Made by a program: the position numbers and the translations under genes
Part shown: piece by piece, positions 8,650 to 33,690 of the stretch
How the letters are laid out: each line of letters opens with the position of its first letter
Numbering within the stretch: position 1 is the stretch's first letter
Source of the DNA: Pirellulales bacterium
Lineage (GTDB): Bacteria; Planctomycetota; Planctomycetia; Pirellulales; JACPPG01
Direction of reading: 5' to 3'
Assembly: GCA_036490175.1 (NCBI GenBank)
Contig: DASXEJ010000088.1
Location: 1-64,000 of the forward strand
Length of the DNA stretch: 64,000 bases
Notes under the pieces: model-generated
What the model saw: the letters and a program-made list of their open reading frames with translations, nothing else
The model's database searches: none
What the model was told of the DNA's origin: nothing

Positions 8650-9386
8650 GTGCCCGATCCTTGTTTTGTCTGTGCTGTGCGTTCGACGCCTGAGGGCTCT
8701 GCACCCTGCGTTAAGCACTACTTTTCCCAACAAGCCACGATTTGCAGGGCTGGTACTCTGCCGCGCAGACACACCCCTGCCGAGCATCACCGGCGATCAT
8801 AGATCGCGCGCGAACGCAATCCAGCCGATCAATCGTGGAGATGGGTTAAGTAGTCCCTGCACCCGTGAGAGCCTGCCGAACAAGCGCGCAGCCAGAATTG
8901 GATACACGCCAGAACACCGAGAGGATGCGCTCACCGTCTACGCAAAAGACGAGAAAGTGTCCTTTCAACGCTTGGCCGGGATCACATCTCCCGGCGGGCC
9001 TACGAGGTTAGCTGTCGGGCTAGGGCTTGAAAGTGCCCTGGTTCGCAATCAGGCGAACCTGCGCCCCGTGAAATCAGGCCAGAATCAAAACTGGCAGCCT
9101 GATTTCGTTTGGGTCCCCCGCTACCGCGTCTGGCGACGCGTTATTAGGCTACACACTGTAATTATACAATGCCGCCGAAGGTCAACAATCTTTCGCGCTC
9201 CCGATTCGATCGCAACTCGAATCAGCGCTTCGAGATTGGTTTCGTTTCCTGTTACCACCCGAGTGGTGTCGAGTGACGAACGTTCCGTAAAGGCATCGAA
9301 GTTTCAGGAACGTGTTCGCGACGTTCCTACTGTTTGTATCGCACAAAGAAGAGTTCGCGACGCATTGCACCTTTTGAGGGACCATC

Positions 9387-25766: not shown

Positions 25767-25932
25767 CACCGGCCTGGCGGCAATGGATAGATTTTGCCCT
25801 TTAGGCCAGACTAAACGCTGCCAGACGCCTTGATAAGTCCCGGTCCACATTCGTATACTGGCGGGTCTTGGCCGGGCCCGCAACCGTGTGAGTGGGCCGT
25901 GCGTTGCTATTTGCGAGTCGGAGAGATTTGCC

Positions 25933-26253
25933 ATGACGATGGATAAGAGTTTGCGGATTCAGCTCGGCCTGGTCCGTGCCCGCGGGGTGCTCACACGCGG
26001 CGAACGAATCACGAAGCTGCAAGAGGGGGACCGCTGGGCCGACGGACGCAGCCCACTCGGCCTGCCCAAGGTGCGCGTGCTGAAGCTCTCGATGAAAAAG
26101 AAAAAGAAAGCCAAGGAAGAGGGTGCCGACGCAGCTGCACCAGGTGCGGCTGCTGCTGCGCCAGCCGCCGGTGGCAAGGCCCCCGCAGGCGGAAAGGCCC
26201 CAGCCGCAGCCGCTGCCAAAGCACCGGCCAAGGGCGCCGCAGGCAAGAAGTAA
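25933..26253 (+). CDS. Small basic protein: ~55-aa N-terminal domain plus a Lys/Ala/Pro-rich C-terminal tail reminiscent of histone H1/AlgP tails
   Basis: GGAGAG lies 9 nt upstream of the ATG. The tail reads KKKKKAKEEGADAAAPGAAAAAPAAGGKAPAGGKAPAAAAAKAPAKGAAGKK. Confidence 0.5.
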   Translation: MTMDKSLRIQLGLVRARGVLTRGERITKLQEGDRWADGRSPLGLPKVRVLKLSMKKKKKAKEEGADAAAPGAAAAAPAAGGKAPAGGKAPAAAAAKAPAKGAAGKK

Positions 26254-26361: not shown

Positions 26362-27639
26362 ATGCGCGTCACGCTTGAATATGGCAAGACTGGGCTGGCC
26401 GTTGAATTGCCGGCGGACCGTGTCGTTCGCTCCTTAGGGTACAAGAACGCTCCGCCGCTCGCCGATCCGGCAGGCGAATTGGCCGCCAAGCTTGCTGCGC
26501 CGACCGGGACGCCCCCTTTGCCAGAGCTCGCACGCGGTCGCACAAGCGCCTGTGTCGTAATCAGTGACATCACGCGCCCCGTGCCGAACCGCCTGATCCT
26601 ATCGCAAGTTCTGCCGATTTTGGAAGCCGCCGGTATACCGCGCGAAAAGATCACCATCCTAGTCGCCACCGGGCTGCACCGCCCGAACGAAGGCGCCGAA
26701 CTGGTCGAAATGGTTGGCCAAGATATTGTGGATCGCTATCGGATTGAGAATCATCACGGTACGGTACTGGCCGAGCACACGTACTTGGGAGATAGCCCTC
26801 GCGGTGTACCGATCTGGATCGACTCGCGCTACGTCGAGGCGGATCTAAAGATCACTACCGGCTTGATCGAACCACATCTGATGGCGGGCTTCTCTGGCGG
26901 TCGTAAGCTGATCTGCCCAGGCATCGCGGCACTGGAAACCGTCAAGGTCTGGCACGGGCCGACTTTCCTCGAGCACCCCAAGGCCGATTGTGGCATTCTT
27001 GATGGCAACCCTGTTCACGAAGAGAACACCTGGATCGGCCGCCACACGGGCTGCGATTTTATCGTCAATTCCGTGATCGATACGGAGCGCCGCCCACTGG
27101 CGCTCGTCGCAGGCGACATGGAACAAGCCTTCCTCGAAGGAGTGGCATTCGTCCGCAAAGTCGTCGTCGACACTGTGCCGGAACCGGTCGACGTGGTCGT
27201 CACAAGTTCGGCCGGCTACCCGCTCGACACTACTTTTTACCAGGCAGTGAAGGGACTGACGGGAGCCCTGCCGATCGTCAAGCAAGGAGGCACGATCGTG
27301 CTGGCGGCGAGCCTTTCCGAAGGAATTGGCAGTCCCGAATTTCAGCGGCTGTTTGACGAAAACCCCAGCCTGGACGTTTTCGTCGAACGGATCTTGGGGA
27401 AGGACTATTTCGTGATGGATCAGTGGCAGCTCGAAGAACTGGCCAAGGTCTGCCGCAAAGCACGTGTCAAGATCGTCAGCCATGGCCTGCCGGCCGCGAC
27501 GATCAATCGCCTCTTTGTCGAAAGTGCGCCAAGCGTCGAGGCTGCCGTCGCGGAATCGCTGGCCGAGTACGGTCCGAACGCGACCTTGGCCGTGATCCCC
27601 AAGGGGCCCTACGTGTTGGCGCAAGTTGCGACGGATTAA
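26362..27639 (+). CDS. LarA-family protein (nickel-pincer-nucleotide-dependent lactate racemase-like; DUF2088 N-terminal domain)
   Basis: VISDITRP motif and the GGRK motif ([14 protein letters not shown]), which in LarA carries the NPN-tethering lysine. Conserved His residues (GLHRP, ENHHGT) are present. Confidence 0.75.
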
Positions 27640-27693: not shown

Positions 27694-28347
27694 ATGAGCG
27701 AACGCCTGCTGCCGCCACGATTCCTGTTTCGCTTTTCGGCGCCGTGCCATCATCACGAGCCGCTTTGGTCGGCCGCTGGCGCACAACTTGGCCCTCAGCA
27801 TCGGCTGCCCAGCATTGCCGACTTGGACGACAGCCCCACGTTCGCCGAGGTGCGGGCCGGCTGGAGCGCCGCGGGCCTGGCGTTTTTCGTGCAGGTGTCT
27901 GGCAAACGCCGCCCACCGTGGTGTCGCGAGTCGCGGCCCGACGAGAGCGATGGTTTACGCATCTGGATCGACACCCGCGACACGCACAACATCCATCGAG
28001 CGAGCCGTTTCTGCCACCAGTTCATCTTCATGCCGTCCGGCAGCGGGCGCAATCTGGCCGACCCCTACGGCGAGTTGTACTTCATTAATCGCGCACGAGA
28101 AAATCCCAAAGCCATCCGCCCCGAAGCACTCAAATCGCGCAGCGAGAAACGGGTCGATGGCTACCTCCTCGAGGCCTTCATTCCGGCGGCCACCCTAACG
28201 GGCTGGGACCCAGCCGAACATCCGAAATTGGGCTTCAATTACGCCGTAATCGACCAAGAACTCGGCGAGCAATCGTTCAGCTGCGGCAGGGAGTTTCCTT
28301 ACCGCGACGATCCCAGTGTGTGGGGAACGCTGGAACTGGCGAAATGA
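27694..28347 (+). CDS. Hypothetical protein, possibly with a carbohydrate-binding (CBM9/DOMON-like) fold
   Basis: Non-repetitive ORF of 217 aa with ordinary codon usage, e.g. LRIWIDTRDTHN...LGFNYAVIDQE. The functional guess is weak and the start is uncertain. Confidence 0.45.
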   Translation: MSERLLPPRFLFRFSAPCHHHEPLWSAAGAQLGPQHRLPSIADLDDSPTFAEVRAGWSAAGLAFFVQVSGKRRPPWCRESRPDESDGLRIWIDTRDTHNIHRASRFCHQFIFMPSGSGRNLADPYGELYFINRARENPKAIRPEALKSRSEKRVDGYLLEAFIPAATLTGWDPAEHPKLGFNYAVIDQELGEQSFSCGREFPYRDDPSVWGTLELAK

Positions 28348-28386: not shown

Positions 28387-28635
28387 CTACGACGATTCGT
28401 CCCCTTTGATGATTCCCAGCACCTGTCCGACATGCACTTCGTCCTCTTCGGCCACGAGCGTCTCGATGAGCGTTCCGCTGGCAGGTGCCGGTAGGTCGAC
28501 TGTCACGCTATCGGCGGCTAACTCGACTATCCGGTCCCCTTCCGTGACTCGGGCGCCGCGTTTGACTAACCACATACTGAGCGTAATTGGCCGAGTGCCT
28601 AATCCAAGTTCCGGCACGACAAGATTGTGGCGCAT
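28387..28635 (-). CDS. Lipoyl/biotinyl-domain-like small protein lacking the modifiable lysine
   Basis: The 82-aa sequence fits a lipoyl-domain fold (..GDRIVELAADSVTVDLPAPASGTLIETLVAEEDEVHVGQVLGII), but the position normally occupied by the lipoyl-Lys in E-x-D-K-A reads A-D-S-V. It lies immediately downstream of lipA. Confidence 0.6.
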   Translation of the reverse strand: MRHNLVVPELGLGTRPITLSMWLVKRGARVTEGDRIVELAADSVTVDLPAPASGTLIETLVAEEDEVHVGQVLGIIKGDESS

Positions 28636-28685
28636 GGCGTCGACTGCGGAGTATGCGGATCGCTGTGCTGACCGATTGCTCGCGA

Positions 28686-29615
28686 TCAGTTGGTCGCGAC
28701 TTGTCCGGCCATCTCACGGGCGTGATAGCTCGACCGCACGAATGGCCCGCTGGCTACCTGCGAGAAACCCATTCGCCGCGCGGCCAGCCCCAATTCGTCG
28801 AACTCTTCCGGCGGCACGTAACGCACCACAGGCAGATGCTCGGGCGACGGTTGCAAATACTGCCCCAATGTCAGCAGGTCACAGCCCGCGTCGAGCAGAT
28901 CGACCAAGGTGTCGAGCAATTCGTCATGCGTTTCGCCGAGTCCCAGCATCAGGCCGCTTTTGGTCTTGATCGATGGATCGAGTCGCTTGACGCGCGCCAG
29001 CAGTTCGAGCGTCCAGCGGTAGTCGCTTTTGCGGCCACGTACGTCGCGGTACAGCCGCGGCACGGTCTCGGTATTGTGATTGAACACCTCGGGCCGACTG
29101 CTTACGACTCGCTCAATGGCCCCAGACTTGCCGAGAAAATCGGGCGTCAAAACCTCCACCGCCGCCCCCGTGCGCTCGCGAACCGCCAGCACGCAGCGAT
29201 AAAAATGTTCGGCTCCGCCGTCGGCCAGATCATCGCGCGTTACCGACGTAATCACCACGTGTGCCAAACCAAGTCTTGCGGCCGCCTCGGCCACCCGCTC
29301 GGGCTCATCATCCACGATCCCCAGCGTTTTTCCCTTCGCGACGGAGCAAAATCCGCATGGCCGGGTGCAGACGTTTCCCAGGATCATGAACGTGGCCGTC
29401 TTCTGCGAATAGCACTCCATGCGATTGGGGCACTTGGCGTTATCGCAAACGGTCTCTAACCGTAATTCTTCGAGTAGTCTCGCTGTGAAATGGTTAGCGT
29501 TCCCTTTGGGAACGTTACGTTTCAACCACGGCGGTAAGCGCGGACCCGCCGCATCAGGACCCAGATCCGACGGCGTGATGATCGGCAGGTTAACTAGCGC
29601 GGGCGGATGTGCCAT
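28686..29615 (-). CDS. lipA: Lipoyl synthase
   Basis: Auxiliary-cluster motif CDNAKCPNRMEC and radical-SAM motif CTRPCGFC. The ORF is full length. Confidence 0.9.
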   Translation of the reverse strand: MAHPPALVNLPIITPSDLGPDAAGPRLPPWLKRNVPKGNANHFTARLLEELRLETVCDNAKCPNRMECYSQKTATFMILGNVCTRPCGFCSVAKGKTLGIVDDEPERVAEAAARLGLAHVVITSVTRDDLADGGAEHFYRCVLAVRERTGAAVEVLTPDFLGKSGAIERVVSSRPEVFNHNTETVPRLYRDVRGRKSDYRWTLELLARVKRLDPSIKTKSGLMLGLGETHDELLDTLVDLLDAGCDLLTLGQYLQPSPEHLPVVRYVPPEEFDELGLAARRMGFSQVASGPFVRSSYHAREMAGQVATN

Positions 29616-30339
29616 GTCGTGTACGAGCGTGCGCCAACAGCGCGTGCCCGGTATGAAGGTGATAACGTGGACAGTCGAAGGCCTCGGCCAAATGCCGCAC
29701 CAATCCTTCGCGAACCCGGGACATTTTAACAGGCTGTTGTCGCTCGATCGCCAATGAACTCATCGCGACGGGCTTCAACGCGCCATGCTGCACCGCCGAA
29801 AGGATTCGCCGCGAAGGAGATACGTTCACATAAGCGCCGTAATACGTAGTCCAATTCTTCACGGCCACTCCCACCGCGACAATCTGACCTGTCCGTCCCC
29901 ACATGCCCAGTTGTCCGTCGGGGGCTTGTCCCTGAAAGCCTACCTCGGACAACGCCGCCGCGATGCCCTGCTGCAAGCGGTCGAGAAATCCGCCCACGTT
30001 CCACCCGCAGGCCGCCAAGGGAACGATCGGGTAAATCGCCAATTGACCGGGGGCATGAACCAATGAGCCGCCACCACGATTCACCCAGCGGACGGTCAAT
30101 CCTTCGCTGGCCAACGTGCGCGGGCTGTAACGAATGTCGATCCGCGAACCATGGCGCCCCATCGTGATGGCGGGCGGATGTTCGCAAATGAGTAGCGAGA
30201 TGTGCCCATCGCGGCGGGCTTCGGTTTCGTACACCAGCCGCTGCTGCAATGCCAGGCAGGTGTCGAAGTCGACCGAGCCTAACAGGTAGGCAGCCAAGGC
30301 TGGCACGGCGGAAACCGGTTGGCGATCAGCAGGTGTCAT
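29590..30339 (-). CDS. lipB: Octanoyltransferase (lipoyl(octanoyl) transferase)
   Basis: LipB-like sequence (LLICEHPPAITMGRHG ... RGGGSLVHAPGQLAIYPIV ... conserved K in AVGVAVKNWTTYYG). It overlaps the lipA start by 26 nt. Confidence 0.8.
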   Translation of the reverse strand: MTPADRQPVSAVPALAAYLLGSVDFDTCLALQQRLVYETEARRDGHISLLICEHPPAITMGRHGSRIDIRYSPRTLASEGLTVRWVNRGGGSLVHAPGQLAIYPIVPLAACGWNVGGFLDRLQQGIAAALSEVGFQGQAPDGQLGMWGRTGQIVAVGVAVKNWTTYYGAYVNVSPSRRILSAVQHGALKPVAMSSLAIERQQPVKMSRVREGLVRHLAEAFDCPRYHLHTGHALLAHARTRHGTSARAS

Positions 30340-30619
30340 GGGGGACGCAGCGCGCTAGCCGAGAAACCTATGCGTCAAACGACAATTGCGCGACCTCCGT
30401 CACGACTTGAGTCCCGTTTTGCCAGAGAGTAAAAGGAACTTGCGTATCCGCCGGTCGGCATCTTGGCTACTCTAACACCGGACGCGCACCTGTAAAAGAC
30501 GGAACGACTGGCCAGGCCTTACAGGGACAGACAACCTTAAGGGGACACCGGTTTCGTAACGCGTGCGGCACACCGCAGATCGCAGTCGTCCTACTGACTG
30601 CAAAACAGTTCGCTACCTC

Positions 30620-31363: not shown

Positions 31364-32035
31364 ATGCTGCAAGTCAAAGATCTCAAAAAGTCGTTCCCCC
31401 AGCCCGACGGCACGCGGCTGCCGATTTTGGACATTCCCGAGTTCAGTGTCGCCGCGGGTGAGCAAATGGCCCTGATGGGGCGTAGCGGCTGCGGCAAGAC
31501 GACATTGCTGCACATCATCGCCGGCATAAGCCGCCCCGACTCGGGACTGGTTCAATTGGGCGGCTGTGACATTCATCGCCTTTCGGAACATGGCCGGGAC
31601 CGTTTTCGGGCCGACAACATCGGCTACGTCTTCCAAACCTTCAACCTTTTGCCCGGCTTCTCGGCCTTGGAAAACGTCCTTTTGGGCATGAGCTTTACCG
31701 GTGGCCGAGTGGACGAACCCCGTGCCCGATTGCTGCTTTCCCACGTCGGTCTCGCACATCGGCTGACGCACAAGCCGGCCATGCTGTCGGTCGGGGAACA
31801 GCAGCGCGTGGCCGTGGCCCGGGCGATGGCCAATCGGCCGAAGCTGCTGCTGGCCGACGAGCCCACCGCAAACGTCGATACTCGCCATCAACAACAAGTG
31901 ATCGATCTAATACGCACTTCGTGTACCGAGGAAAACGTAGCACTGGTGCTGGTCACGCACACTCCCGAAGTGAGCGAGCAATTCGCGCGTGTGGACCATC
32001 TCGATCAACTCAACCAGGCCGTGGTGACAGCATGA
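31364..32035 (+). CDS. ABC transporter ATP-binding protein (MacB/LolD/FtsE-like, type VII ABC)
   Basis: Walker A (GRSGCGKTT), signature (LSVGEQQRVAVARA) and Walker B (LLLADEPT). The stop overlaps the start of the permease gene (ATGA). Confidence 0.9.
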   Translation: MLQVKDLKKSFPQPDGTRLPILDIPEFSVAAGEQMALMGRSGCGKTTLLHIIAGISRPDSGLVQLGGCDIHRLSEHGRDRFRADNIGYVFQTFNLLPGFSALENVLLGMSFTGGRVDEPRARLLLSHVGLAHRLTHKPAMLSVGEQQRVAVARAMANRPKLLLADEPTANVDTRHQQQVIDLIRTSCTEENVALVLVTHTPEVSEQFARVDHLDQLNQAVVTA

Positions 32036-33690
32036 GCTTGTGGAAGATTGCCTGGCGCAGCATCCAGCAACGAGCATTGGCTTCGACCCTGACGGCACTG
32101 AGCATGGCGCTTGGCGTGGCGCTTGTCGTCGCCGTGCTGGTGGCTCAGGGGGTGATCCGCGATTCATTTACGCGCGGCGCTGGTGGCTACCACCTGGTGG
32201 TCGGCAAGAAGGGGAGCCAGTTACAACTGGTCCTCAATACGGTCTATCACTTACAGGACCCGATCGAGAATGTGCCCTACTCGTTCTACAAAGAATTCGT
32301 CAACACCCCGGGCCATTCCGGACGTTTCGCACCCTATGTGCAAGTGGCGATTCCCTATTGCCTGGGTGACAACTATGAGGGCTTTCGTGTAGTCGGCACC
32401 GTGCCCGCCTTGTTCGACGAGTTCGAATATGCTGGAGGCAAGAAGTACGAATTCCAGTCCGGCGGCCGCAACTTCGAGCAAGAGCACTTCTTCGAGGCGG
32501 TGATCGGTTCAGCCGTGGCCCACAAGACTGGTCTTAAGGTAGGGGATGAGTTTCAGCCCACCCACGGTTTGTCCAACGAGGGGGATGGGCACAAGCACGA
32601 TGCGTTTAAGATCGTCGGCATCCTCAAGCCGACAGGTACGGCCAACGACCGCGCGCTGTTCATCAACATGGAGGGTTTCTTTTTGCTCGACAAGCATGCC
32701 AAGCCGGTCGACGAAGTCGCGGCCGCGCATGGCGACGAACACCATGACGCCGAAGACGCCCATCATCACGACGAGCACGCCGAACACGATCACGATGATG
32801 GAGCAATGCCTGCCGCTGACGTGGGCGAACAAGACGCCAACCATCCGGCCCACGACGACCACGAGCATTCAGACGCCGCGAAGCCGGACGCTGATCATCA
32901 TCATGACGAGCAGCCGGGCGAAGCCCATTCGCCCCACGATGCCGTGGGCGGAGGAGCAGAGCATTCCGAGCATGATCATGCCGCCCACGACCCTGCCGCC
33001 CCGGATCATGACGCGCATGCTGGCGATGATCACGATCATGATGCCCACTCCCACGTGCGACATGATCACGATGCTCATGACCACACAGGCCACGATCACG
33101 AGGGACACGATCATCACCACGAACCTCTGCCAGACGATCAGCGCGAAGTGACGGCCATTTTGGTGCTGGCATCCGACGACTTTAGCGCCGAAGGACTGCG
33201 TACTACAATCAACGAGGGCGAGGTTGCTCAGGCCGCCTCCCCCATTCGAGTTATCAACGACTTCTTTAAGACGATGGTCAGCGGAGTAACAATCGCCCTG
33301 TTGGCGCTAACCGTGCTGATTATCGTCGTGGCCGGAGTCGGCGTGATGGTGAGCATCTATAATTCTATGAACGATCGCCGTCGCGATATCGCCGTGATGC
33401 GGGCTCTAGGGGCGGGTCGCGGCACGGTTTTGTCAGTGATCTTGTTCGAATCGATCCTGCTGTCGCTCGGCGGTGGTTTGCTCGGCTTTGTGCTAGGTCA
33501 CACCTTGGTAGGTGTGCTCGGGCCCATCGTCGAGGCATTTTCAGGCGTCACACTCGGTTTTATGCAGTTCGTCTCGTATGAGTTAATCTTAATTCCAGGC
33601 CTGATCGTACTGGCGGCGCTGACTGGCTATTTGCCCGCGATGAGTGCCTATCGCACCGACGTGGGCAAAGCGCTGTCGGCCAGTCCGTAA
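32032..33690 (+). CDS. FtsX/MacB-like ABC permease with a His/Asp-rich insertion in its periplasmic domain
   Basis: N-terminal TM1 (ALASTLTALSMALGVALVVAVLV), a large extracytoplasmic domain, and the C-terminal FtsX-type three-TM bundle (DIAVMRALGAGRG...). An HxD/HD-rich stretch of ~130 aa (DEHHDAEDAHHHDEHAEHDHDD...HDHEGHDHHHE) sits inside the periplasmic domain. Confidence 0.8.
   Translation: MSLWKIAWRSIQQRALASTLTALSMALGVALVVAVLVAQGVIRDSFTRGAGGYHLVVGKKGSQLQLVLNTVYHLQDPIENVPYSFYKEFVNTPGHSGRFAPYVQVAIPYCLGDNYEGFRVVGTVPALFDEFEYAGGKKYEFQSGGRNFEQEHFFEAVIGSAVAHKTGLKVGDEFQPTHGLSNEGDGHKHDAFKIVGILKPTGTANDRALFINMEGFFLLDKHAKPVDEVAAAHGDEHHDAEDAHHHDEHAEHDHDDGAMPAADVGEQDANHPAHDDHEHSDAAKPDADHHHDEQPGEAHSPHDAVGGGAEHSEHDHAAHDPAAPDHDAHAGDDHDHDAHSHVRHDHDAHDHTGHDHEGHDHHHEPLPDDQREVTAILVLASDDFSAEGLRTTINEGEVAQAASPIRVINDFFKTMVSGVTIALLALTVLIIVVAGVGVMVSIYNSMNDRRRDIAVMRALGAGRGTVLSVILFESILLSLGGGLLGFVLGHTLVGVLGPIVEAFSGVTLGFMQFVSYELILIPGLIVLAALTGYLPAMSAYRTDVGKALSASP
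32725..33125 (+). other. His/Asp-rich low-complexity coding segment inside the ABC permease gene
   Basis: Runs of cac/cat/gac/gat codons, e.g. catgatcacgatgcccactcccacgtgcgacatgatcacgatgctcatgaccac. Confidence 0.8.

What the first reader, a model, noticed from the sequence alone, without database searches (positions are those of the whole stretch)
28387..28635. Lipoyl-domain-like protein without the lipoyl-lysine, encoded directly after lipB-lipA
The 82-aa product has the spacing and hydrophobic pattern of a lipoyl/biotinyl attachment domain. The hairpin that normally carries the modified Lys (E-x-D-K-A) reads E-L-A-A-D-S-V-T-V-D instead, so it lacks the Lys. A non-modifiable lipoyl-domain mimic in the octanoyl-transfer/sulfur-insertion operon could act as a decoy or regulator of LipB/LipA, or as a scaffold. 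Alternatively, I may have misplaced the alignment register and Lys26 (WLVKRGARV) could be the acceptor in an atypical position.
Basis: partly seen in the sequence, partly recalled or inferred. Interest (0 to 1): 0.5.

Follow-up and report, generated by a model that had tools for sequence, protein, structure and literature searches.

The report
Lysine-free lipoyl-domain mimic beside LipA
A small, conserved planctomycete protein has the fold of the domain that normally carries lipoic acid but lacks the lysine that holds the cofactor, and it sits in an operon with lipoyl synthase and a LipB-like enzyme that has lost its usual catalytic residues, which points to an undescribed variant of the lipoic-acid assembly machinery.

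Summary
Window 28387-28635 (minus strand) encodes an 82-aa protein, here called X. It matches Pfam Biotin_lipoyl over its full length and folds as a lipoyl domain (AF2 pLDDT 94; TM about 0.85 to E2 lipoyl domains). Asp42-Ser43 sits at the hairpin tip where genuine domains have Asp-Lys.

X is not a one-off. At least 59 Planctomycetota genomes and 133 protein clusters carry a standalone 70-138 aa orthologue. None has a Lys in the hairpin, and 79 of 133 have no lysine at all.

The gene follows lipA directly in about two thirds of the genomes. It is under purifying selection and forms a family distinct from genuine E2 domains, which occur in the same genomes with Asp-Lys.

One fact changes the picture. 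The upstream "lipB" has the LipB fold but lacks the LipB Cys/Lys dyad: Lys142 is Gln and Cys176 is usually Asp. It has a conserved Cys at a pocket-lining position and a conserved C-terminal extension.

My best reading, which is inferred and untested, is that X is a non-acylatable substrate mimic that binds the LipB-like protein and/or LipA. I rate it a new variant of a known kind. No description was found in the searchable literature.

The parts
28387..28635 (-). X: an 82-aa standalone lipoyl-domain-fold protein with no acceptor lysine (public record HEY1599177.1, 'lipoyl domain-containing protein', Pirellulales MAG)
   Evidence: ORF. Pfam PF00364 at E=3.5e-13. AF2 pLDDT 94.3. Foldseek TMq 0.77-0.87 to E2 lipoyl domains. 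Public name.
28507..28512 (-). Codons GAT AGC, encoding Asp42-Ser43. They form the tip of the beta-hairpin where genuine lipoyl domains have Asp-Lys.
   Evidence: Sequence read directly. phmmer alignments to PDB lipoyl domains. DSSP strands 35-41 and 44-49. Across the family, position 43 is S/A/G/P/N/E/C/D/V and never K.
28636..28685 (-). A 50-nt spacer between the lipA stop codon and the X start codon. No terminator-like site was found in it.
   Evidence: In 37 related loci the same gap has a median of 41 nt and ranges from -14 to 419 nt, with several overlapping stop/start pairs.
28686..29615 (-). lipA, a canonical lipoyl synthase
   Evidence: TIGR00510 scores 354.7 bits against a cut-off of 310. 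The motifs CX4CX5C (residue 57), CX3CX2C (residue 83) and RSSY (residue 294) are all present.
29590..30339 (-). LipB*: a LipB-fold protein without the LipB Cys/Lys dyad. It overlaps the lipA start by 26 nt. The public record HEY1599179.1 calls it 'hypothetical protein'.
   Evidence: Pfam LplA-B_cat at E=1e-24. It falls below every NCBIfam LipB cut-off. Alignments to 2QHT and 1W66. AF2 pLDDT 89.8. TMt 0.91 and rmsd 2.1 A to T. thermophilus LipB 2qhs.
29884..29886 (-). Gln152 of LipB*, at the position of the catalytic Lys142 (M. tuberculosis) / Lys135 (E. coli)
   Evidence: This position is Q in 116 of 120 close clusters. In the wider clade it is Q/L/I/V/P/R.
29782..29787 (-). His185-Gly186 of LipB*, where canonical LipB has Pro-Cys176, the acyl-thioester cysteine
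   Evidence: This position is Asp in 110 of 120 clusters and never Cys. Only 9 of 120 have any Cys within 8 alignment columns.
30184..30186 (-). Cys52 of LipB* ('LICEHP'), at the position of M. tuberculosis LipB Leu47, which lines the acyl pocket
   Evidence: This position is Cys in 117 of 120 clusters and in most of the 150 representatives clustered at 50% identity. The pocket role of Leu47 comes from PMC9307952.
29644..29646 (-). His232, invariant in the conserved C-terminal extension of LipB* ('RYHLxTGHP'), which canonical LipB lacks
   Evidence: Invariant column in alignment A2. The extension is modelled as a strand (226-230) plus a helix (233-241).
30469..30496 (-). A sigma-70-like promoter match upstream of LipB*. 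This is weak evidence only.
   Evidence: 9 of 12 positions match. One site was found against 0.7 expected by chance.

Best explanation
X is a paralogue of the N-terminal lipoyl domain of a planctomycete E2. It has permanently lost the acceptor lysine, so it cannot carry octanoate or lipoate in the normal amide linkage. It keeps the lipoyl-domain fold and hairpin geometry. The acidic residues that frame the lysine in genuine domains (Glu12, Glu40, Asp42) have become hydrophobic or small, and the protein as a whole has become very acidic and nearly lysine-free. It is made from the same transcript as lipoyl synthase LipA and a remodelled LipB-fold protein (LipB*). I propose that X works purely by binding. 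It would dock its hairpin end into the lipoyl-domain-binding site of LipB* and/or LipA as a non-reactive subunit. In that role it would be a built-in substrate mimic that regulates, stabilises or scaffolds the lipoyl-assembly enzymes, not a cofactor carrier.

Shown here: the fold, the absence of lysine, family conservation, purifying selection, synteny with lipA and LipB*, and co-existence with genuine Lys-bearing E2 proteins.

Inferred, not shown: that X binds LipB*/LipA, which of the two it binds, and whether the effect is inhibitory, activating or structural.
For: - **Fold and missing Lys:**
- **No Lys anywhere in the family hairpin:** 0 of 59 genome loci and 0 of 133 clusters have a Lys at positions 39-46, and 79 of 133 proteins have no Lys at all. 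Lys makes up 0.9% of residues in X against 8.1% in genuine planctomycete lipoyl domains. The median net charge is -11 against -6.
- **A distinct family:** the held-out window X scores 127 bits against the Lys-less HMM and 83 bits against the genuine-domain HMM.
- **Systematic remodelling of the tip surface:** E12 to L/I/M, E40 to L/V/A, D42 to G, K43 to a variable small residue.
- **Purifying selection:** dN/dS is about 0.35, similar to LipB* at 0.30.
- **Synteny:** the order LipB*-lipA-X is seen in about 38 of 59 loci found through X. It is also seen at all 4 distinct sites with enough sequence that were found through LipB*, which have different flanking genes. One of these LipB* proteins is only 37% identical to the window's.
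- **Co-transcription:** short or overlapping lipA/X junctions.
- **Genuine substrates coexist:** genuine E2 proteins with Asp-Lys occur in the same MAGs (L059 and L068; L028 and L074).
- **Plausible electrostatics:** lipoyl synthase binds its carrier protein through charge-charge contacts, with the carrier negative and the enzyme positive (PMC12246082). This fits a hyper-acidic mimic.
- **Precedent:** plant BADC proteins are BCCP homologues that cannot be biotinylated and that regulate acetyl-CoA carboxylase (10.1101/634550 and PMC12706156).
Against: - No binding or activity data exist, and no complex model could be built with these tools.
- In about one third of genomes X has moved away from lipA into unrelated contexts: downstream of a TPR protein or a PSP1-domain protein, or upstream of Lnt or penicillin amidase. 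Its function therefore does not need co-transcription and may not concern LipA at all.
- The tip residue is hypervariable, which is odd for a residue meant to sit in an active site.
- A mirror-tree comparison does not single out LipB* or LipA as the partner. r(X,LipA)=0.61, r(X,LipB*)=0.54 and r(LipA,LipB*)=0.51, with no control for the species tree.
- Whether LipB* is catalytically active is unknown, so 'substrate mimic of what' remains open.
Confidence: 0.45

Rival explanations
1. X acts on the 2-oxoacid dehydrogenase complexes rather than on the assembly enzymes. As a lipoyl domain that cannot be modified, it would bind E1, E3 or the E2 core as a competitor or structural subunit. Its linkage to lipA would then reflect only co-regulation of lipoate-related genes.
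For: X descends from an E2 lipoyl domain and keeps much of that sequence, for example TVDLPAP, which is shared with planctomycete E2 domains. The gene survives when moved away from lipA. Genuine E2 proteins are present in the same genomes.
Against: E1 recognises the residues around the lipoyl-lysine (established knowledge, cited from memory). Those are exactly the residues that X has remodelled. No E1, E2 or E3 gene lies next to X in any locus examined, and none is in the window. The only recurrent neighbours are lipA and LipB*.
Confidence: 0.15
2. X is a generic small barrel-sandwich-hybrid adaptor whose function has nothing to do with lipoate. Its position after lipA is an ancestral accident of where the duplicated lipoyl-domain fragment landed.
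For: About 21 of 59 loci have X in other contexts, sometimes with a 4-nt overlap onto other genes such as a TPR protein or Lnt. X also gives weak sub-threshold Pfam matches to other barrel-sandwich families: Biotin_lipoyl_2, RnfC_N and NQRA_N.
Against: The triad is kept between loci whose LipB* proteins are only 37% identical and whose flanking genes differ. The non-lipA contexts fall into a few lineage-specific synteny groups, so they reflect few relocation events. No alternative neighbour recurs across those groups.
Confidence: 0.2
3. X is still an acyl carrier, but the octanoyl/lipoyl group is attached at a non-lysine site. Candidates are the N-terminal amine, the family-specific Ser20, or Thr45. 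The remodelled LipB* would catalyse the attachment.
For: LipB* lost the Lys/Cys dyad but keeps its substrate-binding elements (RGG loop, His83, PGQ). It also gained a conserved Cys and a conserved His. Ser20 is specific to the family, found in 127 of 133 clusters. The small-protein relay has a precedent in GcvH of the B. subtilis LipM/LipL pathway (established knowledge).
Against: Ser20 lies in strand 2, not at the hairpin tip, and the tip residue itself is hypervariable. Thr45 is inherited from ordinary lipoyl domains. LipA is canonical and its known substrate is a long octanoyl-lysine arm (PMC12246082). An ester on a strand residue or an N-terminal amide would not present the chain in the same way.
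Confidence: 0.07
4. X is a decaying remnant or a spurious ORF with no function.
For: It is short, lacks the defining residue, and automated pipelines label it inconsistently.
Against: It is conserved as an intact 70-138 aa ORF in at least 59 genomes and 133 clusters. dN/dS is about 0.35 with synonymous sites near saturation. Its folded core is predicted with confidence. It carries family-specific conserved residues: L10 and D47 are invariant and S20 is present in 127 of 133 clusters.
Confidence: 0.03
5. X is an ordinary lipoyl carrier and the alignment register is wrong, so a lysine elsewhere (Lys25 in WLVK) is the acceptor.
For: None, apart from the presence of two lysines (25 and 77) in the window's copy.
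Against: Position 25 is Glu in 80 of 134 aligned sequences (the 133 clusters plus the window's X) and Lys in only 21. 79 of the 133 cluster proteins have no lysine at all. All five printed PDB alignments and the AF2 secondary structure give the same register.
Confidence: 0.01

Closest known systems
Lipoyl domains of E2 subunits of 2-oxoacid dehydrogenase complexes (e.g. PDB 1LAB, 1QJO, 3CRK chain C)
   Same: They share the flattened beta-barrel fold (TMq 0.66-0.87). Sequence identity is 31-48% by tblastn. They fall in the same Pfam family, PF00364. The motif after the hairpin, TVDLPAP, matches that of planctomycete E2 domains.
   Different: X is a standalone 82-aa protein with no linker, subunit-binding domain or catalytic domain. 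It has no Lys at the hairpin tip, and the acidic residues around the tip are replaced. It is almost lysine-free and more acidic. It separates cleanly as its own family.
Plant BADC proteins (BCCP homologues that cannot be biotinylated and that negatively regulate heteromeric acetyl-CoA carboxylase)
   Same: The logic is the same. BADC is a swinging-arm carrier-domain homologue that cannot receive the cofactor, persists as a conserved protein, and acts by occupying the carrier's place in the enzyme complex (10.1101/634550 and PMC12706156).
   Different: BADC concerns a different cofactor (biotin), a different kingdom, and a different partner (biotin carboxylase rather than cofactor-assembly enzymes). 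The function of X has not been tested. This is a functional analogy only, not homology at family level.
GcvH as obligate lipoyl relay in the Bacillus subtilis LipM-LipA-LipL pathway, and LbpA in the sLpl(AB)-LipS1/S2 pathway
   Same: Each is a small single-domain lipoyl-carrier-type protein that takes part in cofactor assembly and is genetically tied to it (PMC10332631 and PMC6067878; the pathway details are established knowledge).
   Different: GcvH and LbpA carry the acceptor lysine and are covalently modified. X cannot be modified in that way. X gives no significant GcvH match, only 13 bits against TIGR03077 with a cut-off of 144.
LipB octanoyltransferase (M. tuberculosis 1W66, T. thermophilus 2QHS), compared with the upstream gene LipB*
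   Same: LipB* has the same fold (TMt 0.91 and 0.83). It has the same RGG loop, His83, PGQ, Glu48-His49 and Thr54. It occupies the same position immediately upstream of lipA.
   Different: The Cys176/Lys142 dyad that defines the LipB mechanism (PMC9307952) is absent. Position 142 is Gln or hydrophobic, and position 176 is Asp or variable. A Cys is conserved at pocket position 47, and a C-terminal extension carries an invariant His. LipB* scores below every NCBIfam LipB cut-off.

Membership tests
Biotin/lipoyl attachment domain superfamily (Pfam PF00364, barrel-sandwich hybrid fold) | Sequence match above the Pfam gathering threshold over the whole domain | tested here: met
   49.6 bits against a cut-off of 22.1, covering profile positions 3-73 of 73.
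Biotin/lipoyl attachment domain superfamily (Pfam PF00364, barrel-sandwich hybrid fold) | Flattened eight-stranded beta-barrel fold | tested here: met
   AF2 pLDDT 94.3. TMq 0.85 to the human L2 domain 3crk_C and 0.77 to E. coli 1qjo.
Functional lipoyl carrier (E2 lipoyl domain, GcvH or LbpA) | Acceptor lysine at the tip of the beta-hairpin (Asp-Lys-Ala/Val) | tested here: not met
   The window has Asp42-Ser43. 0 of 59 loci and 0 of 133 clusters have a Lys at positions 39-46, and 79 of 133 have no Lys at all.
Functional lipoyl carrier (E2 lipoyl domain, GcvH or LbpA) | Covalent octanoyl or lipoyl modification in vivo | not testable with these tools
   This needs mass spectrometry of the native protein.
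E2 dihydrolipoamide acyltransferase (the name that JGI annotation gives to family members) | Peripheral-subunit-binding domain and C-terminal 2-oxoacid_dh catalytic domain | tested here: not met
   X is an 82-aa ORF bounded by stop codons. It matches only the first ~80 positions of the E2 NCBIfam models, scoring 56.7 bits or less against cut-offs of 307-722.
GcvH (glycine cleavage H protein) | Match to GcvH-family models | tested here: not met
   The only hit is 13.2 bits to TIGR03077 (cut-off 144). The PDB GcvH hit has E=0.9.
BCCP (biotin carboxyl carrier) | Biotinyl-lysine in the Met-Lys-Met hairpin motif | tested here: not met
   There is no Lys in the hairpin. BCCP NCBIfam models score 21 bits or less against cut-offs of 75 or more.
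BADC-like non-modifiable carrier mimic (a functional class, not a homology family) | A carrier-domain homologue that lacks the acceptor lysine yet is conserved | tested here: met
BADC-like non-modifiable carrier mimic (a functional class, not a homology family) | Binds the enzyme that normally binds the carrier and modulates its activity | not testable with these tools
   This needs binding and activity assays.
LipB octanoyltransferase (upstream gene, 29590-30339) | LipB fold and acyl/phosphopantetheine-binding elements (RGG loop, His83, PGQ) | tested here: met
   TMt 0.91 to 2qhs. R76, G77, H83 and Q87 are invariant in 120 clusters.
LipB octanoyltransferase (upstream gene, 29590-30339) | Catalytic Cys176 (M. 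tuberculosis) / Cys169 (E. coli) that forms the acyl-thioester | tested here: not met
   The window has Gly186 at this position. The family has Asp in 110 of 120 clusters and Cys in 0 of 120. The definition of the dyad comes from PMC9307952.
LipB octanoyltransferase (upstream gene, 29590-30339) | Catalytic Lys142 (M. tuberculosis) / Lys135 (E. coli) | tested here: not met
   The window has Gln152. The family has Gln in 116 of 120 clusters and Lys in 1 of 120.
LipB octanoyltransferase (upstream gene, 29590-30339) | Score above the NCBIfam LipB equivalog cut-offs | tested here: not met
   The best score is 81.9 bits against 155 (NF010925). TIGR00214 gives 59.8 against 83.55. GenBank labels the protein 'hypothetical protein'.
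LipA lipoyl synthase (28686-29615) | TIGR00510 score above cut-off, both Fe-S cluster motifs, and the C-terminal RSSY motif | tested here: met
   354.7 bits against 310.25. CX4CX5C, CX3CX2C and RSSY are all present.

The most novel reading that the evidence does not exclude
LipB*, LipA and X together would form a distinct, undescribed lipoyl-assembly module of Planctomycetota. In this reading LipB* is an active acyltransferase that has swapped the classical Cys176/Lys142 dyad for a relocated nucleophile/base pair: Cys47 in the acyl pocket and His232 on the new C-terminal extension. X would be an obligatory, non-covalent, lysine-free lipoyl-domain subunit. It would act as an adaptor or gate that lets LipB* and/or LipA work on the genuine E2 and H-protein substrates, or that couples the two enzymes. 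That would add a third kind of small-protein involvement in lipoate assembly, alongside the GcvH relay and LbpA. It would also be the first carrier-domain pseudo-substrate found in a cofactor-assembly pathway.
Probability: 0.2. Interest if true: 0.8.

Novelty: new variant of a known kind. Interest (0 to 1): 0.6.

Why it matters
Lipoate assembly is regarded as well mapped, through the LipB/LipA, LipM/LipL/GcvH, LplA and sLpl/LipS1-S2 routes. Every known route ends on a lysine of a carrier domain, and every LipB uses a Cys/Lys dyad. Here a whole bacterial lineage keeps three things in one operon: a canonical lipoyl synthase, a LipB-fold protein without that dyad, and a lipoyl-domain copy that cannot accept the cofactor. 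That lineage covers at least 59 genomes, about 140 LipB* clusters at 50% identity, and well over 100 X clusters.

If the two odd proteins work together, this would be a new way of controlling or carrying out protein lipoylation, and a bacterial, lipoate-side counterpart of the plant BADC regulators. At the least, these proteins are wrongly or unhelpfully named in public databases as 'E2 component', 'biotin attachment protein', 'LipB' or 'hypothetical protein'. Genome-based metabolic reconstructions that count them as an E2 or as LipB will be wrong.

Tried and rejected
- **Alternative acceptor lysine (Lys25/26).** Rejected, because the position is not conserved and most orthologues have no lysine.
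- **A second, canonical LipB or an E2 in the window.** tblastn with T. thermophilus and M. tuberculosis LipB and with planctomycete E2 found only LipB* and X.
- **A canonical LipB, LipM or LplA elsewhere in the same genomes.** I could not test this.
- **Mirror-tree distance correlations to choose between LipB* and LipA as the partner.** Inconclusive: r = 0.54 against 0.61, with no control for the species tree.
- **A shared partner in the contexts where X is not next to lipA.** None emerged. Neighbours were TPR proteins, sigma-70, a histidine kinase, PSP1, Lnt and penicillin amidase. They fall into a few lineage-specific synteny groups.
- **Domain fusions of X that would name a partner.** None appeared among the top 120 profile hits, which are all 70-138 aa. 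The long 'ORFs' reported are artefacts of taking the first start codon in stop-poor, GC-rich DNA, or read through from upstream genes.
- **Measuring whether Cys52 and His232 of LipB* lie near the acyl pocket.** Not possible, because model coordinates are not exposed. The pocket position of Cys52 rests on its alignment to M. tuberculosis Leu47.
- **Literature searches.** Five searches for a lysine-less lipoyl domain, a LipB without its dyad, or planctomycete lipoylation found nothing relevant. One search supplied only the BADC analogy. Subscription journals are not covered.
- **Planctopirus limnophila Tn-seq data (PMC10632474 supplement).** lipA (Plim_3382) is essential. The adjacent 'LipB-like' gene (Plim_3383) is non-essential, as is a small biotin/lipoyl-domain gene (Plim_1350). 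I could not verify that these are orthologues of LipB* and X, and that paper's table lists the same essential/non-essential calls for the E. coli lipA and lipB orthologues, so I do not rely on this.
Full report
**1. The observation**

The minus strand of window 28387-28635 carries an ATG-initiated ORF of 82 codons, which I call X. X matches Pfam Biotin_lipoyl (PF00364) from end to end, at E=3.5e-13 and 49.6 bits against a cut-off of 22.1. It also matches the N-terminal lipoyl-domain segment of many E2 NCBIfam models.

A phmmer search against PDB sequences gives E=8.6e-15 to an E2 acetyltransferase and E=2.5e-8 to the classic B. stearothermophilus lipoyl domain 1LAB. All five printed alignments use the same ungapped register around the hairpin. 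They put query 'VELAADSVTVDLPAP' opposite 'VEVSTDKVDTEIPSP' or 'CEVQNDKAVVEIPSP'.

An AlphaFold2 model built on 41 homologues is confident (pLDDT 94.3, pTM 0.81). It has strands at 35-41 and 44-49, so Asp42-Ser43 is the hairpin tip. Foldseek places the model on solved lipoyl and biotinyl domains, with TMq 0.85 to the human PDC L2 domain and 0.77 to E. coli 1QJO.

The only correction is that the lysine in WLVKRGARV is Lys25.

**2. X belongs to a conserved, lysine-free family**

A single-sequence search found 40 clusters of standalone proteins of 70-105 aa, most of them about 80 aa. In their alignment the position of the lipoyl-lysine is never Lys, and position 25 is mostly Glu.

A scan of one genome per species found 230 relatives, of which the best 80 were kept. 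These split cleanly in two:
- **L005-L059 (plus L001-L004, fetched through X homologues).** These are short stop-bounded ORFs, nearly all from Pirellulales or Planctomycetota MAGs. The tip residue is S, G, A, C, P, D, E or T.
- **L060-L084.** These are genuine E2 proteins, mostly 380-1500 aa (three are cut short at a contig end), with Asp-Lys at the tip.

Two MAGs hold both kinds (L059 and L068; L028 and L074). The lysine-free copy therefore coexists with genuine substrates.

A profile search returned 1492 hits at E<1e-6, and the top 120 are all 70-138 aa. Among 133 clusters, none has a Lys anywhere in positions 39-46, and 79 contain no lysine at all.

Lysine makes up 0.9% of residues in X, against 8.1% in genuine planctomycete lipoyl domains, which have a median of 7 Lys per domain. 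The median net charge of X is -11, against -6.

HMMs built separately from the two groups separate them by more than 34 bits in every case. The held-out window protein scores 127 bits against the lysine-free model and 83 against the genuine-domain model.

Pairwise dN/dS is about 0.35, with synonymous sites near saturation. That is comparable to the neighbouring LipB-like gene (0.30) and looser than lipA (0.18).

X is thus a real protein under selection, and its loss of lysine is ancient and fixed.

**3. What changed relative to a genuine lipoyl domain**

A column-by-column comparison with genuine domains (confirmed on 133 clusters) shows concerted changes at the end of the domain that normally enters enzyme active sites:
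- Glu12 of the 'G-E-S' loop next to the hairpin becomes Leu, Ile or Met.
- Glu40 becomes Leu, Val or Ala.
- Ser/Thr41 becomes Ala.
- Asp42 becomes Gly in about two thirds of members.
- Lys43 becomes a variable small residue.
- Leu10 and Asp47 are invariant, and Ser20 is family-specific.

The acidic frame around the lysine has therefore been replaced by a small, hydrophobic surface. Meanwhile the rest of the protein gained acidic residues, for example the conserved Glu63-Asp64-Asp65.

**4. Genomic context**

In the window, X follows lipA after a 50-nt gap. lipA overlaps the upstream LipB-fold gene by 26 nt, and there is no terminator-like site between the genes.

lipA is canonical. It scores 354.7 bits on TIGR00510 (cut-off 310) and has both cluster motifs and RSSY.

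Among the 59 lysine-free loci, about 38 have the same LipB-like, lipA, X order. The median lipA-to-X gap is 41 nt, and several stop and start codons overlap.

Starting instead from the LipB-like protein, all four distinct sites with enough sequence show the same triad, with different flanking genes (L085, L086/L087, L088, L089). In L089 the LipB-like protein is only 37% identical to the window's, yet its 84-aa partner is again lysine-free at the tip ('VEVLVSGATIDVPAP').

In roughly a third of genomes X has moved. The new contexts fall into a few lineage-specific synteny groups:
- downstream of a TPR protein;
- downstream of a PSP1-domain protein;
- upstream of Lnt;
- upstream of a penicillin amidase.

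No neighbour recurs across these groups.

**5. The 'lipB' is not an ordinary LipB**

The protein encoded at 29590-30339, which I call LipB*, matches Pfam LplA-B_cat. It falls below every NCBIfam LipB cut-off, with a best score of 81.9 bits against 155. GenBank labels it 'hypothetical protein'.

LipB is defined mechanistically as a Cys/Lys dyad acyltransferase. The dyad is Cys176/Lys142 in M. tuberculosis and Cys169/Lys135 in E. coli (PMC9307952). I checked the numbering against the 1W66 alignment, where both residues are offset by two.

In alignments to 2QHT and 1W66, the window protein has Gln152 at the lysine position and His185-Gly186 where LipB has Pro-Cys.

Across 120 clusters at 90% identity:
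- The lysine position is Gln in 116.
- The cysteine position is Asp in 110 and never Cys.
- Only 9 have any Cys within 8 alignment columns.

The substrate-binding elements are kept. Arg76, Gly77, His83, Gln87, Glu48 and His49 are invariant, Gly78 is kept in 119 of 120, and Thr54 is largely kept. Leu47, which lines the acyl pocket according to PMC9307952, is Cys in 117 of 120.

A C-terminal extension absent from canonical LipB carries an invariant His232 and near-invariant Arg225 and His227. It is modelled as an ordered strand plus helix.

The whole protein superposes on T. thermophilus LipB with TMt 0.91 and rmsd 2.1 A.

An exhaustive search of 1.84 billion cluster representatives gives 140 clusters at E<1e-30. 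Of the 150 best, only one has the canonical Leu/Lys/Cys pattern. In the others the 'CEHP' cysteine is mostly kept, while the old dyad positions vary.

This looks like a remodelled active site rather than a decayed one. Whether it is active cannot be decided here.

**6. How X most likely works**

Three facts are established. X cannot be lipoylated on lysine. It keeps the shape that lipoyl-domain-binding enzymes recognise. Its only recurrent genomic partners are LipA and LipB*.

Lipoyl synthase binds its carrier protein through a charge-charge interface, with the carrier negative and the enzyme positive (PMC12246082). A hyper-acidic lipoyl-domain copy would suit such a surface.

My preferred explanation, at confidence 0.45, is that X is a non-reactive substrate mimic. 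It would bind the lipoyl-domain-docking site of LipB* and/or LipA and act as a regulatory, stabilising or scaffolding subunit. Which partner it binds, and whether the effect is positive or negative, is inferred and not shown.

The closest functional precedent is the plant BADC family. These are BCCP homologues that cannot be biotinylated and that regulate acetyl-CoA carboxylase.

The rival explanations are:
- **Action on E1 or E3 of the dehydrogenase complexes (0.15).** This fits the origin of X, but no neighbouring gene supports it, and the E1-recognition surface is the part that changed.
- **A lipoate-unrelated adaptor (0.2).** The relocations favour this. The deep conservation of the triad argues against it.
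- **A non-lysine acyl carrier (0.07).** The only family-specific nucleophile, Ser20, is in a strand, and the tip is hypervariable.
- **A relic (0.03).**
- **An ordinary carrier with a misaligned lysine (0.01 or less).** refute this.

**7. Comparison with what is known, and novelty**

By sequence and fold, X is a member of the biotin/lipoyl attachment-domain superfamily. It fails the defining feature of a functional lipoyl carrier, the acceptor lysine. It lacks everything else that defines an E2, a GcvH or a BCCP (see the membership table).

LipB* has the LipB fold but fails both catalytic-residue tests, so it should not be filed as LipB.

Five literature searches found no description of a lysine-free lipoyl domain linked to lipA, of a LipB lacking its dyad, or of planctomycete lipoylation (one search supplied only the BADC analogy). 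The survey of prokaryotic lipoate assembly, PMC10332631, does not mention Planctomycetes. The library excludes most subscription journals, so prior description cannot be excluded.

I rate this a new variant of a known kind. It is a carrier-domain pseudo-substrate, paired with a remodelled transferase, in an otherwise classical pathway.

**8. Limits**

- All homologues come from MAGs or metagenomes.
- No expression, binding or activity data exist.
- I could not check whether these genomes also encode a canonical LipB, LipM or LplA.
- The P. limnophila Tn-seq data (lipA essential; the adjacent LipB-like gene and a small biotin/lipoyl-domain gene non-essential) are suggestive. Orthology was not verified, and that paper's table lists the same essential/non-essential calls for the E. 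coli lipA and lipB orthologues.

Noticed in passing
window 29590-30339 (-), and LipB* orthologues in L001-L059 and L085-L089: The gene read as lipB encodes a LipB-fold protein without the LipB Cys/Lys dyad (Lys142 to Gln, Cys176 to Asp or variable). It has a conserved Cys at pocket position 47 ('CEHP') and a conserved C-terminal extension with an invariant His. The clade is large, about 140 clusters at 50% identity. The deposited GenBank annotation often labels these proteins 'hypothetical protein'.
   Followed up: yes
window 8983-9160 (-): A c-di-AMP riboswitch (Rfam RF00379, ydaO/yuaA type) scores 62.2 bits against a gathering threshold of 38 and covers the full model. I did not examine the gene it controls.
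   Followed up: no
window about 32720-33140 (+), inside ORF 31921-33690: The MacB/FtsX-type ABC permease next to the ABC ATPase (31364-32035) carries a long insert of about 130 residues that is extremely rich in His, Asp and Glu (e.g. 'HGDEHHDAEDAHHHDEHAEHDHDD...HDHTGHDHEGHDHHHE'). It may bind metal. The same SmpB, ABC_tran and MacB_PCD/FtsX neighbourhood recurs in L001-L003, L085 and L088.
   Followed up: no
window 25888-26253 (+): A 121-aa ORF has a highly basic, Lys/Ala/Gly/Pro-rich low-complexity tail ('KKKKKAKEEGADAAAPGAAAAAPAAGGKAPAGGKAPAAAAAKAPAKGAAGKK'), reminiscent of histone-like or small basic proteins. It was not analysed.
   Followed up: no
window 26362-27639 (+) and 27694-28347 (+): The first ORF is a LarA-type nickel-pincer racemase homologue. 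It scores 405 bits on NF033504, below the equivalog cut-off of 460, so its substrate is uncertain. It is followed by a CBM9-like protein that converges on X. The same pair sits next to the triad in L001.
   Followed up: no
L045 2548-4766, L048 2800-4949, L051 4944-7012: In one sub-lineage X has moved away from lipA and its stop codon overlaps the start of apolipoprotein N-acyltransferase (Lnt) by 4 nt. In another group (L019, L033) its start overlaps the end of a large TPR protein. Lnt is itself a thioester-forming N-acyltransferase. This may be coincidence.
   Followed up: partly
Family-wide (P0001-P0040, P0311-P0403): Automated annotations name these ~80-aa lysine-free proteins 'pyruvate/2-oxoglutarate dehydrogenase E2 component', 'biotin attachment protein' or 'biotin/lipoyl-containing protein'. 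These names overstate what the proteins can do and could mislead metabolic reconstruction.
   Followed up: partly
X and LipB* families compared with LipA (related loci): Both X (0.9% Lys) and LipB* (1.0% Lys) are markedly poorer in lysine than LipA from the same loci (3.3%) and than genuine planctomycete lipoyl domains (8.1%). This could reflect selection against stray acylation near an activated acyl group, or simply GC-driven Arg-for-Lys replacement. It is unresolved.
   Followed up: partly
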